DNA of 64,000 nucleotides from Candidatus Heimdallarchaeum endolithica. GTDB lineage: Archaea > Asgardarchaeota > Heimdallarchaeia > Heimdallarchaeales > Heimdallarchaeaceae. The position numbers and the translations under genes were made by a program. Below the pieces are notes generated by a model that saw nothing but the letters and a program-made list of their open reading frames with translations, was not told where the DNA came from and did no database searches. The stretch is taken from the NCBI GenBank assembly GCA_021513715.1, contig CP084167.1, positions 480,001-544,000 on the forward strand. Reading direction: 5' to 3'. Below are positions 1,061 through 25,621 of this stretch, in pieces. Position 1 is the first letter of the stretch, and each line of letters opens with the position of its first letter.

Positions 1061-1831
1061 GTGGGTAAAATGGTTGAAAATAACTTTTTAAACGATCTAA
1101 ACAACTTTTTGAAAGAATTCAGTTTAGAAAGTTCTAAGATTCTGAAGAACATTAAATTTTTCTTTTCGTTCTTCAGTGAACTAAACAAAGAAATAGAAAA
1201 AAGTAATTTTTCTGCGATTGACAAAAAACTTGTTTCTTATTCTTTTGAAGCCTTTGATTTAACTATAAAAAAAACTTATAGATTTATTCAAGATAACTGT
1301 CTGTATATTTTTGAAAATAAACAAGATTACAAAAATGATGTAAAAAAACTAGATACGTTTGAAACAATCGTGAAAGAGATATATTATGCTTTCGGAGACT
1401 TCTATTTGGAAAAATATAATGGATTAGATTCTTTTATAAAAAATAATAAAATAGAAATAAATTTCAAAATTTACTCCAAATTTAGAACTATTTTTTTAAG
1501 ATTATTAAATCAAATTCAATCATTAAAGCAGTATATAATTGATGATGAGGAACTAAACAAATTAACTAGTTGGAGAAAAACTAAATTACAAGAATTGTTT
1601 CATTCTGCGACTTCAATTAATCTTGATAAGTTAGCTGAGATACTGCATTTTGATAACTCTGCTGAACTTGAACAATGGATAATGCAGATTTCTAATGATA
1701 TCTTTGTAATAGATGATAATATTCTCAAAATATCAAGGTCAGTTACTGATGATGAAATAGCTAAATCTATAGATTCCTTGCTAAACGAGTTTAAGAAATA
1801 TGAAACATTAGGATTAGGAAAAAAAATATGA
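1061..1831 (+). CDS. Hypothetical helical protein with C-terminal winged-helix (PCI-like) module and IDSLL...GKKI tail
   Basis: 256-aa ORF; the last ~80 aa align by eye with the C-termini of 17627-18502 and 19406-25621. Confidence 0.75.
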   Translation: MGKMVENNFLNDLNNFLKEFSLESSKILKNIKFFFSFFSELNKEIEKSNFSAIDKKLVSYSFEAFDLTIKKTYRFIQDNCLYIFENKQDYKNDVKKLDTFETIVKEIYYAFGDFYLEKYNGLDSFIKNNKIEINFKIYSKFRTIFLRLLNQIQSLKQYIIDDEELNKLTSWRKTKLQELFHSATSINLDKLAEILHFDNSAELEQWIMQISNDIFVIDDNILKISRSVTDDEIAKSIDSLLNEFKKYETLGLGKKI

Positions 1832-1840
1832 GGGATTAAA

Positions 1841-25400: not shown

Positions 25401-25621
25401 CATTTTGATGAAATCGTAGCTAGTTTTATTGGTGGTAGACTAGAATTGGATGAGTGACAATTACTATTGCTTAGACTAAAAAAATAATTAGGTTTTACAC
25501 CAATTGAGCATTCATTATATCCATCGAGTTTTATAATTAGAAATAGTAAGAAGATTATAAACAACAAAAGAAAAGTATTAGAATGAAATTGTTTACCAAA
25601 AAATCTATTTACTCTTTTCAT
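19406..25621 (-). CDS. 2071-aa single-pass surface protein: FG-GAP/PQQ-like beta-propeller, DxDxDG (TSP3-like) Ca-binding repeats, Ig-like domain, TM, cytoplasmic helical region and winged-helix module
   Basis: ADVDSDGNLEI / ADLDGNGKAEV FG-GAP motifs; many DSDGDSMPDGWE / DNDGLTNLEEY repeats; TM LHIFLFITLPLLFVIFFIFVIVF followed by RKKKKR; ends IDSLLKQFEQWSDSKDGKRE. Confidence 0.9.
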   Translation of the reverse strand: MKRVNRFFGKQFHSNTFLLLFIIFLLFLIIKLDGYNECSIGVKPNYFFSLSNSNCHSSNSSLPPIKLATISSKWTYSTSGPILYSPKIADVDSDGNLEILVSSGDNCLYCLNAQTGSLKWKYTASDDTIDLSGVPLANLDADSYLEIIYKSRGGTLYCIDGLNGEEQWSVNIGGEAVPAIGNVDSDSNLEVVDISSGGDIYIISGSSGSIEWTIDININCDRSSPAIADVNNDGINDLIFQQYSPVSVYCVNSNDHSVFWSFTPSPSVESQYISPLVADLDGNGKAEVVINTYSKIFVLNSSDGTEQWSHDFSSASGGKLSYSNPVIFDLDFDQNLEICNGVALYRGNNGSVIWVDGIDYVTRLVTGDIDGDRQLELIVSRDTDSLEFYNIEDHSYIDSYDTGGYVDGTALVYDVDNDNNIEVIFGSQDNNVYCIEFSSPSAGLRSYIGMSGVDIYNSNNNLRNDVDLDGLSIYTEKEIGSSDVSSDTDGDGINDGEEYVIWQTEPLNQDSDGDSMPDGWEINYSLDPLIDDSSGDPDVDNLSNLDEYIFGTNPTTSDSDGDSMPDGWEVNNSLDPLTDDSALDPDNDGLTNLEEYTNNCDPQDSDSDNDGLTDGEEVNTYFTNPTNTDSDGDSMPDGWEVNNSLDPLTDDSALDPDNDGLTNLEEYTNNCDPQDSDSDNDGLTDGEEVNTYFTNPTNTDSDGDSMPDGWEVNNSLDPLTDDSALDPDNDGLTNLEEYTNNCDPQDSDSDNDGLTDGEEVNTYFTNPTNTDSDGDSMPDGWEVNNSLDPLTDDSALDPDNDGLTNLEEYTNNCDPQDSDSDNDGLTDGEEVNTYSTNPLDSDSDSDSMPDGWEINYSLNPLVDDASEDTDNDGLTNLEEYSQSTDPQDSDSDNDGLTDGEEVNTYSTNPTNTDSDDDSMPDGWEVNNSLDPLTDDSALDPDNDGLTNLEEYTNNCDPQDSDSDSDGLTDGEEVNTYSTDPNDSDSDDDSMPDGWEVNNSLDPLTDDSALDPDNDGLTNLEEYTNNCDPQDSDSDNDGLTDGEEVNTYSTNPTNTDSDGDSMPDGWEVNNSLDPLTDDSALDPDNDGLTNLEEYTNNCDPQDSDSDSDGLTDGEEVNTYSTDPNDSDSDDDSMPDGWEVNNSLDPLTDDSALDPDNDGLTNLEEYTNNCDPQDSDSDNDGLTDGEEVNTYFTNPLDSDSDSDSMPDGWEINYSLNPLVDDASEDTDNDGLTNLEEYSQSTDPQDSDSDSDGLTDGEEVNTYSTDPNDSDSDDDSMPDGWEVNNSLDPLTNDSALDADSDNLTNLEEYIYDTDPQDSDSDNDTFSDYEEIQTGTDPNDSNDYPDTEPPVIGNIPVISNTEEQNLTFSIVVTDNVFVDLVFCYYNYTGHPDFIQIEMTNVSNDNYTANLGTFTAGTKVSFYVWVNDTSGNHAYTELVTITVEPSIIDSDGDSIPDAYEIANGLNPNFDDSNDDLDNDGLLNIDEYQLGTYANNSDSDSDTLLDGEEVHTYSTDPLDSDTDSDGMPDGWEVYHTLDPLNNDTAEDPDSDNLTNLEEYKYGTNPSNSDSDDDGIPDGYEVLNSLNPLHNDANEDLDNDDLSNIDEYLLGTYANNNDSDDDGMPDGWEVENSLNPLANDSSDDIDNDGLTNLEENTNFTDPNNSDTDDDGLLDGQEVKTYFTDPNNSDSDNDGLLDGQEVKTYFTDPNNSDSDNDGVSDYDEITYYNTDPNNSDTDDDGILDGEEIANGTNPLKKELSYLHIFLFITLPLLFVIFFIFVIVFSRKKKKRNILLGFVQQADKLERLFRDLVHHKNSFFDSAFVNDYIQFSNDFLSFVRSFATHFLSQPELLKESEWIETKRRVTTLLDEFRDFTAKEIEKIDLEIEVNRIKKVLEKTTFKDATQLNAVVDISNFDMLLNTFTSIQNLISDTKNFIDEFTFSKLASYWSKLENLIKSKEIEVKQKKDEIEELLNEIKGLYLDYQLNQERLETLRRIIAVHRKINVDKLVFLLKLRSKSSLFSWLKNQELGFKYVIQDDVIIFEQESIATEREKDEISQVIDSLLKQFEQWSDSKDGKRE
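21700..23955 (-). repeat. Intragenic tandem repeat, 213-bp (71-aa) unit, about 10.5 near-identical copies
   Basis: The CCCA of each CCCATCCATC ends at 21790, 22003, 22216, 22429, 22642, 22855, 23068, 23281, 23494, 23707 and 23920, an exact 213-bp period. Confidence 0.95.

What the first reader, a model, noticed from the sequence alone, without database searches (positions are those of the whole stretch)
1061..25621. Shared C-terminal winged-helix (PCI-like) module with IDSLL...GKK tail on soluble, LRR and transmembrane proteins
Seen: unrelated N-termini end in the same ~80-aa module, I.hxxLxxxLxF.....LExWL....FxIDxxhL....EIxxxIDSLLxxF/YxxW...GKK. It occurs in 1061-1831 (GKKI), 17627-18502 (GKKV) and the cytoplasmic end of 19406-25621 (GKRE). 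The LRR protein 1841-2635 and a pseudogene at 19200 carry a variant without the tail. Partial echoes occur in 45354-47342 (IIDSLLDKF) and 37438-40494 (EIDVLGKKY). Established: PCI subunits of the proteasome lid, CSN and eIF3 assemble through winged helices plus a terminal helix bundle and partner with MPN proteins. Inference: an expanded homotypic docking domain linking surface receptors to cytoplasmic adaptors, a possible undescribed signalling or proteostasis network.
Basis: partly seen in the sequence, partly recalled or inferred. Interest (0 to 1): 0.8.

Follow-up and report, generated by a model that had tools for sequence, protein, structure and literature searches.

The report
Portable tail for Asgard UFM1-type tagging
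Dozens of surface and cytoplasmic proteins of this Asgard archaeon end in the same short helix-plus-lysine tail, which across Asgard genomes travels with a UFM1-like protein-tagging operon and probably lets each carrier dock the tagging enzyme and be tagged.

Summary
The module is real: 28 C-terminal copies in this Heimdallarchaeum genome (reversed-sequence null at most 11 bits, members at least 53). Its winged helix matches Rpn12 at 1.3 A. Two claimed echoes (37438, 45354) fail. The carriers are not PCI subunits: no helical-repeat solenoid was found. The conserved unit is the last ~20 residues, I-D-x-L-L-x-x-F-x-x-W-E-x4-G-K. This tail also sits on winged helices that score near zero against the main profile, and directly behind a membrane helix. 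It tracks a UBA5/JAB/Ubl/UFC1-like operon (window 51553-54414). Of 24 sampled Asgard genomes with that E2, 17 have the tail, against 8 of 277 without. In two Loki genomes tail genes are interleaved in the operon. The I/L/F spacing equals that of the UFC1-binding helix of UFL1, and the lysine is almost never arginine (103:1). Best reading (0.45, inferred, binding untested): a built-in E2-docking and acceptor-lysine tag. The scan noted the module and the operon link before in other genomes; I found no paper describing either.

The parts
1061..1831 (+). Soluble helical protein (256 aa). Module at 1544-1828: winged helix about 1565-1735, tail helix from I237 (1769), conserved G-K lysine K254 (1820-1822)
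1841..2635 (+). LRR protein (264 aa) with winged helix and helix but no W-E/G-K end. Second gene of a helical+LRR pair that recurs at genome 789005-790876, in G001 and in G005
17627..18502 (+). Soluble protein (291 aa): long-helix bundle homologous to the cytoplasmic domains of membrane carriers, then winged helix (about 199-260) and tail (I272 to K289)
19197..19337 (+). Decayed relic of the LRR-type module with in-frame stops; weak
   Evidence: 10 bits; 80% over 40 nt
19406..25621 (-). 2071-aa type I membrane protein (repeat-rich extracellular part, TM 1756-1774, about 200-aa cytoplasmic linker). Module at 19409-19711, tail lysine K2069
47350..48441 (-). Conserved unnamed companion gene of the operon (363 aa, C-terminal Zn ribbon); no Pfam or Atlas match
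51553..52431 (+). UBA5-like E1; ends in an acidic amphipathic helix in the same register as the tail
   Evidence: UBA5 E 1e-52, MoeB 1e-24
52459..53514 (+). JAB/JAMM protease, likely Ubl maturation and removal
53554..53820 (+). 88-aa ubiquitin-like protein ending V-V-G-L; homologues end in (I/V)-V-G. UFM1-like assignment is weak by profile
   Evidence: Pfam Ufm1 E 0.057; no PDB hit
53845..54414 (+). UFC1-like E2 with invariant Cys in I-C-H-x-H. Probable ATT start at 53845; the open frame begins at 53830
   Evidence: (Pfam UFC1 26 bits, cut-off 25)
54592..55629 (+). EAP30/Vps22-Vps36-like winged-helix protein
55639..56286 (+). SPFH/band 7 protein

Best explanation
The module has two parts: an exchangeable PCI-like winged helix, and a portable C-terminal tag of about 20 residues that serves an Asgard UFM1-type conjugation system encoded by the E1-JAB-Ubl-E2 operon. 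SHOWN: the fold; the separability of the tail; its co-occurrence and physical linkage with the operon; the strict lysine. INFERRED: the amphipathic helix (I0, L+3, L+4, F+7, W+10) binds the UFC1-like E2 in the groove used by the E1 C-terminal helix, displacing E1. The E2 then passes the Ubl to the G-K lysine at +17, on the same chain or a neighbouring carrier, so no separate E3 is needed. JAB matures and removes the Ubl. The tagged surface proteins and their LRR, WD40, TPR and helical partners would then be handled by the ESCRT-II-like and SPFH proteins of the same operon (speculative).
For: Tail without the main winged helix: 18-32 bits on ten proteins whose upstream part scores -4 to +7 bits against the main winged-helix profile, eight of them not used to build the tail profile. 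One is a 1612-aa membrane protein with the tail directly behind its TM helix; a similar TM protein with the tail but no winged helix occurs in Ca. Lokiarchaeum ossiferum. Co-occurrence: 17 of 24 E2-positive genomes have the tail against 8 of 277 others; within the window's order 10 of 10 against 1 of 34; with training genomes left out 6 of 13 against 3 of 272. One of the eight exceptions has the UBA5-like E1. Linkage: 27 tail genes in 12 of 35 E2 loci (504 kb), inserted between E1, JAB and Ubl in L077 and L078. In G304 all 9 hits of a 5.2-Mb genome lie within 21 kb around the operon. Tail-less and RING-fused copies occur in families where the E2 was not found (f11 0 of 76, f6 0 of 11). The UFL1 residues that bind UFC1 are I8, L11, F15, and UBA5 uses the same pocket (PMC10702826); the tail's best-conserved positions have the same 0/+3/+7 spacing. 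Ten of 17 operon E1 C-termini score above the 95th percentile on a tail-helix matrix. Position +17 is K 103: R 1 in a set chosen by the winged helix alone; neighbouring positions give 39:20, 22:9 and 40:8.
Against: No biochemical data exist. Seven genomes have tails with neither E2 nor UBA5-like E1 found, including G159 (10 contigs, 100% complete), and the two checked keep the lysine. Seven E2-positive genomes show no tail hit at E 0.001. An acidic amphipathic helix is a low-information pattern, and JAB C-termini are also shifted upward. The tail profile does not retrieve UBA5 or UFL1 from the PDB. In human UFC1 the helix pocket lies opposite the active site, and UFC1 needs its E3 for lysine reactivity (PMC10702826, PMC9627666). 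The helix persists in RING-fused copies in E2-negative genomes, so part of it may be structural. Genomes are related, so the counts overstate independence. The Ubl's UFM1 identity is only weakly supported by profile.
Confidence: 0.45

Rival explanations
1. The carriers are a repertoire of scaffold-type E3 adaptors, functional analogues of UFL1/DDRGK1. The helix holds the charged E2, the winged helix activates it, and the variable LRR, WD40, TPR or receptor domains choose other proteins as substrates, host or viral. The lysine is only an auto-modification site.
For: Same co-occurrence and linkage data. UFL1/DDRGK1 is built from PCI-like winged helices plus an E2-binding helix (PMC9627666, PMC10702826). 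The variable domains are typical substrate-recognition folds. In E2-negative family f6 the same winged helix is fused to a Zn ribbon and a RING-like domain. The distribution is patchy, as for defence systems.
Against: Sixteen of 28 carriers here have their variable domain outside the cell, away from the E2. Tail-only membrane proteins have no winged helix. Near-invariant K-not-R is more than an incidental auto-site needs. PADLOC gives only generic E1 and JAB matches.
Confidence: 0.2
2. The tail or the winged helix binds another operon product (the EAP30-like winged-helix protein, the Zn-ribbon companion, the Ubl or JAB) and recruits cargo to an ESCRT-II/SPFH sorting step. The E2 is only a fellow traveller.
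For: Companion, EAP30-like and SPFH genes are conserved beside the E2, so co-occurrence cannot separate them. Makarova et al. proposed the same for PCI-like domains of archaeal ESCRT-locus kinases (PMC10936438).
Against: It does not explain the shared register with the E1 C-terminal helix or the strict lysine. The EAP30-like gene was recognised by the window query in only a minority of loci, though diverged versions probably exist.
Confidence: 0.17
3. One reading: homotypic PCI-style assembly. Winged helices join edge to edge and the terminal helices bundle, linking receptors to soluble adaptors and to the JAB as MPN subunit.
For: The five best structural matches among 48,161 chains are all PCI subunits. 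A helical+LRR gene pair recurs beside membrane carriers. The JAB of this genus ends in an I-D-x-L-L helix.
Against: No PCI solenoid in the carriers examined (whole-chain TM-score at most 0.23). The winged helix is exchangeable while the tail is not. Only 2 of 18 JAB C-termini score high on the helix matrix. It explains neither the lysine nor the E2 linkage.
Confidence: 0.13
4. A membrane-tethered or soluble DNA-binding winged helix (ToxR-like regulator).
For: Winged-helix fold; weak MarR and forkhead rows in Foldseek.
Against: Core net charge has median -7 and is negative in 96% of copies. PCI matches rank first. Tail-only proteins exist.
Confidence: 0.02

Closest known systems
UFL1 N-terminal helix and UBA5 C-terminal helix (UFC1-binding elements of eukaryotic UFMylation)
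   Same: Amphipathic helix with I/L/F at 0/+3/+7; linked to UBA5-like and UFC1-like enzymes; next to PCI-like winged helices
   Different: Here it is C-terminal, repeated on dozens of unrelated proteins per genome, and followed by a fixed G-K. No sequence-level match to UFL1 or UBA5 in the PDB. Binding is inferred.
DDRGK1/UFBP1
   Same: Membrane anchor, long helical linker and C-terminal PCI-like winged helix; VIA Z 5.0-5.2 to UFL1/DDRGK1 chains
   Different: Pfam DDRGK finds nothing in the members or the genome. Carriers have large extracellular domains. No UFL1 partner gene was seen in the operon.
PCI domain subunits (Rpn12, CSN7, CSN3, eIF3k; Pfam PF01399)
   Same: Winged-helix topology followed by a terminal helix; Rpn12 Z 8.1, rmsd 1.3 A over 61 residues; weak Pfam PCI match in 14 of 34 copies
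   Different: No N-terminal helical-repeat solenoid; window copies score below the Pfam cut-off; no fixed-stoichiometry complex is evident; the winged helix is exchangeable.
PCI-like C-terminal domain of archaeal ESCRT-locus kinases and HTH/PCI domains of Asgard ESCRT-related proteins (Makarova et al. 2024, PMC10936438)
   Same: Membrane proteins ending in a PCI-like winged helix near ESCRT-II-like genes
   Different: That paper's text gives no tail motif, no family expansion and no UFM1-type link; homology to this module was not tested.

Membership tests
PCI domain proteins | C-terminal winged helix of PCI type | tested here: met
   AF2 topology; Rpn12 Z 8.1, rmsd 1.3 A, 61 residues; top five VIA rows all PCI
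PCI domain proteins | Pfam PF01399 score above the gathering cut-off of 22 bits | tested here: not met
   1061 scores 17.9-21 bits; 17627 and 19406 none as whole or partial proteins. Some Loki tail carriers with a different winged helix pass.
PCI domain proteins | N-terminal helical-repeat (TPR/HEAT-like) solenoid joined to the winged helix | tested here: not met
   17627 folds as a long-helix bundle; TM-score to PCI subunits at most 0.23, rmsd about 20 A; other carriers have LRR, WD40 or membrane domains. The 1061 N-terminus was not folded.
PCI domain proteins | Horseshoe assembly through the winged helices with a terminal helix bundle | not tested
PCI domain proteins | Stable MPN partner | tested here: inconclusive
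   The linked JAB lies in an E1-Ubl-E2 operon; its C-terminal helix register is not conserved (2 of 18)
DDRGK1/UFBP1 | Match to Pfam DDRGK (PF09756) | tested here: not met
   No hit in 34 members at E 0.1 or in the genome at E 0.05
DDRGK1/UFBP1 | Membrane anchor, helical linker, C-terminal winged helix | tested here: met
   16 of 28 carriers
UFM1 conjugation core (operon 51553-54414) | UBA5-type minimal E1 | tested here: met
   Best PDB hit UBA5 E 1e-52, next MoeB 1e-24
UFM1 conjugation core (operon 51553-54414) | UFC1-type E2 with catalytic cysteine | tested here: met
   Pfam UFC1 26 bits over cut-off 25; all 26 PDB hits are UFC1; Cys invariant in 19 sequences
UFM1 conjugation core (operon 51553-54414) | UFM1-family modifier ending in a single Gly (V-G) | tested here: inconclusive
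   V-G invariant in 13 sequences; Pfam Ufm1 only E 0.04-0.06; no PDB hit; not folded
UFM1 conjugation core (operon 51553-54414) | UFL1-DDRGK1 E3 ligase | tested here: inconclusive
   No DDRGK hit; one partial PF09743 hit far from the operon at genome 2186264
UFC1-binding helix (UBA5/UFL1 type) | Hydrophobic residues at 0, +3, +7 on an amphipathic helix | tested here: met
   I 91%, L 90%, F/Y 93% in 191 copies; UFL1 I8/L11/F15 from PMC10702826
UFC1-binding helix (UBA5/UFL1 type) | Binds the E2 pocket and competes with E1 | not testable with these tools
   Needs ITC, NMR or pull-down
DNA-binding winged-helix regulators | Basic recognition helix and wing | tested here: not met
   Median net charge -7, negative in 96%

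The most novel reading that the evidence does not exclude
Asgard archaea run an E3-free form of UFMylation in which each target carries its own E2-docking helix and acceptor lysine as a transferable C-terminal tag, spread over a fast-changing repertoire of surface receptors and sensors. The helix-plus-winged-helix architecture of the eukaryotic UFL1/DDRGK1 ligase would be a specialised descendant or analogue of such tagged proteins.
Probability: 0.3. Interest if true: 0.9.

Novelty: new variant of a known kind. Interest (0 to 1): 0.75.

Why it matters
Published surveys found UFC1 only in eukaryotes (PMC10183829) and report only the Ufm1 tag in Asgard archaea (PMC12962969); neither text names targets or an E3 for an archaeal version. 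If the tail is the docking and acceptor element, it names dozens of candidate substrates per genome. It also gives a three-enzyme-plus-peptide assay for how UFMylation chose targets before the UFL1/DDRGK1 ligase and the ER existed. The operon and tail-bearing proteins are both present in Ca. Lokiarchaeum ossiferum Loki-B35, which from my own knowledge is a cultured Asgard, so proteomics is feasible.

Tried and rejected
Complex prediction of the UFC1-like E2 with the module gave no answer: score 0.71, but an unrelated control partner scored 0.78. It is no evidence either way. Clustering of module genes near the operon in this genome (10 of 16 clusters within 262 kb) was rejected as evidence, because surface proteins without the module cluster there too (8 of 13 against 12 of 15). 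The module profile against PDB sequences gave nothing significant (best: a plant PCI subunit, E 0.19). The tail profile found neither UBA5 nor UFL1. Foldseek gave no E below 0.001 for either model. The N-terminal bundle of 17627 matched only generic helical bundles (Z up to 8.5). PADLOC gave only generic E1 and JAB hits. The ESM Atlas was uninformative for the Ubl and the companion protein. The echoes at 37438 and 45354 were rejected. Paper searches found no description of the module, the tail or an Asgard UFC1 operon; the library lacks most subscription papers. Phylum searches score only a limited number of candidates per genome, so they give presence, not copy number.

Full report
Source. 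The window is G000:480001-544000, a single 3,326,783-base contig at 31% GC. Its same-genus relative G001 is Ca. Heimdallarchaeum aukensis PM71, so this is most likely Ca. H. endolithica (inference; PMC8813620).

Observation. The three named proteins and the LRR protein end in one alignable module. An HMM grown from the four window copies converged on 28 copies in the genome at 53-102 bits, all C-terminal; reversed ORFs reached at most 11 bits. Sixteen carriers are type I membrane proteins; those scanned have beta-helix, FG-GAP propeller or TSP3 ectodomains. Six are LRR proteins or their split remnants, four are helical, one is WD40 and one has a second, canonical-looking PCI winged helix. The relic at about 19200 is weak but plausible. 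The echoes in 37438 and 45354 get no score. The N-terminus of 17627 is a soluble copy of a receptor cytoplasmic domain, so not all N-termini are unrelated.

Fold. AlphaFold2 gives helix-strand-helix-helix-strand-strand plus a terminal helix (pLDDT 81). The five best of 48,161 solved chains are PCI subunits, then UFL1/DDRGK1, at Z 5.0-5.9. In the full-length 17627 model the winged helix fits Rpn12 at Z 8.1 and 1.3 A over 61 residues, while the rest is a long-helix bundle. Whole-chain TM-scores to PCI subunits are at most 0.23. Pfam PCI matches 14 of 34 copies weakly. So the winged helix is PCI-like, but the proteins are not PCI subunits. The core is acidic in 96% of copies, which argues against DNA binding.

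Range. The module occurs in 115 of 301 sampled Asgard genomes and in 559 clusters at 50% identity; 134 of the best 150 have it at the C-terminus. In family f11 it ends WD40 proteins and lacks the terminal helix. In family f6 it is followed by a Zn ribbon and a RING-like domain.

The tail is the conserved unit. The last 20 residues read I-D-x-L-L-x-x-F/Y-x-x-W-E-x4-G-K. A tail-only profile scores 18-32 bits on ten proteins whose upstream part scores -4 to +7 bits on the main winged-helix profile; eight were not in the training set. By eye these include at least three other winged-helix types. One 1612-residue membrane protein at genome 450485 has the tail directly after its membrane helix. The winged helix is thus exchangeable, and the tail is probably read by an outside partner (inference).

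The partner locus. The window holds, at 51553-56286, a UBA5-like E1 (PDB E 1e-52, next family 1e-24), a JAB protease, an 88-residue ubiquitin-like protein ending in V-G, a UFC1-like E2 (Pfam over cut-off; all PDB hits UFC1; invariant Cys), an EAP30-like protein and an SPFH protein. The gene set is conserved across Heimdall-, Loki- and Hermod-type genomes. The UFM1 identity of the modifier is only weakly supported (Pfam E 0.04-0.06).

Co-occurrence. The E2 is found in 24 of 301 genomes (a profile adds two weak hits) and the tail in 25; 17 have both. Within the window's order the match is 10 of 10 against 1 of 34, in Loki family f14 7 of 12 against 5 of 56, and with training genomes removed 6 of 13 against 3 of 272. 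Kin are not independent, so I rely on the counts and their recurrence in several families, not on P values. Physical linkage is the stronger evidence: 27 tail genes lie in 12 of 35 E2 loci, and in L077 and L078 they are inserted between the E1, JAB and Ubl genes. In G304 all nine hits of a 5.2-Mb genome fall within 21 kb around the operon. Against this, seven genomes have one or two tails with no E2 or UBA5-like E1 found, among them the nearly closed G159.

Mechanism (inferred). Human UFC1 binds the UBA5 C-terminal helix and the UFL1 N-terminal helix in one pocket, UFL1 through W5, I8, L11 and F15 (PMC10702826). The tail's best-conserved helix positions have the same 0/+3/+7 spacing, and 10 of 17 operon E1 C-termini score above the 95th background percentile on a matrix of the tail helix, though JAB ends are shifted too. 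The lysine at +17 is K 103: R 1 in a set selected by the winged helix alone, against 39:20, 22:9 and 40:8 at neighbouring positions. That suggests chemistry rather than charge. From my own recollection, the main eukaryotic UFM1 sites RPL26 K134 and DDRGK1 K267 also follow a glycine; I did not verify this. I therefore favour a built-in docking-and-acceptor tag (0.45) over scaffold E3 adaptors (0.2), docking to another operon product (0.17), PCI-style homotypic assembly (0.13) and DNA binding (0.02). The association with the operon itself I put near 0.85. A caveat: human UFC1 needs its E3 for lysine reactivity (PMC9627666), and its helix pocket faces away from the active site, so cis transfer is not assured.

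Known versus new. Makarova et al. mention PCI-like domains near archaeal ESCRT genes. Picchianti et al. found UFC1 and UFM1 only in eukaryotes and trace UFL1 and DDRGK1 to Asgard archaea. Kostlbacher et al. report Asgard Ufm1 without mentioning UFC1 or UBA5. I found no paper on the module or tail. This scan has noted the module, the operon, their linkage and the E2-docking idea in other genomes. I reached the link, before those look-ups, and do not count them as support. Not seen in the notes returned: the separable tail, the lysine statistic and the genome-wide co-occurrence.

Verdict. A real, expanded Asgard module whose conserved tail points to a UFM1-type conjugation system; a new variant of a known kind; interest 0.75.

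Noticed in passing
window 53845-53847; L072, L073, L075, L078 just upstream of the E2: The UFC1-like E2 frame has no ATG/GTG/TTG before its conserved N-terminus in five of six genomes checked. An ATT or ATA codon sits at about the same place, mostly behind a G-rich ribosome-binding-like stretch, suggesting a conserved non-canonical start; some database models truncate the protein to 111 aa.
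   Followed up: partly
L059, L061, L066, L067, L070, L081, L083, L092: The Ubl and E2 are in one open frame in several genomes, which would need JAB cleavage; two of these E1s lack the C-terminal helix.
   Followed up: partly
L054:8040-8708, L055:10614-11282: Two E2s carry their own acidic C-terminal extension ending in a helix of the same register as the tail, possibly autoinhibitory.
   Followed up: no
L041:3422-5488 (genome 1477421-1479490): A 689-aa protein that appears to be tandem winged helices ending in a Zn ribbon and a RING-like domain; six more RING-like frames of this type occur in the genome.
   Followed up: partly
L001, L003, L009, L012 cytoplasmic linkers: A repeated unit of about 16 residues (G-F-x4-E-W/Y-x2-A-x3) fills the linker between membrane helix and module in several carriers; no Pfam name appeared for it.
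   Followed up: no
L006-L007 (genome 611845-640183): Array of eight membrane carriers with near-identical pairs and transposase insertions; G001 has a shorter array at the same site.
   Followed up: partly
L013:2503-3018: A 172-aa protein with a canonical-looking PCI winged helix followed by the module, same frame length in G001.
   Followed up: no
L084 and L077 (G303): One Loki genome has two copies of the operon, each with tail genes beside it.
   Followed up: no
window 28051-34510: Eco57I-like methylase next to a PLD-helicase gene, a restriction-modification-like pair.
   Followed up: no
L102: A contig labelled as a Patescibacteria bin carries a partial E2 of this family and a tail gene of Loki type, probably a mis-binned Asgard contig.
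   Followed up: no
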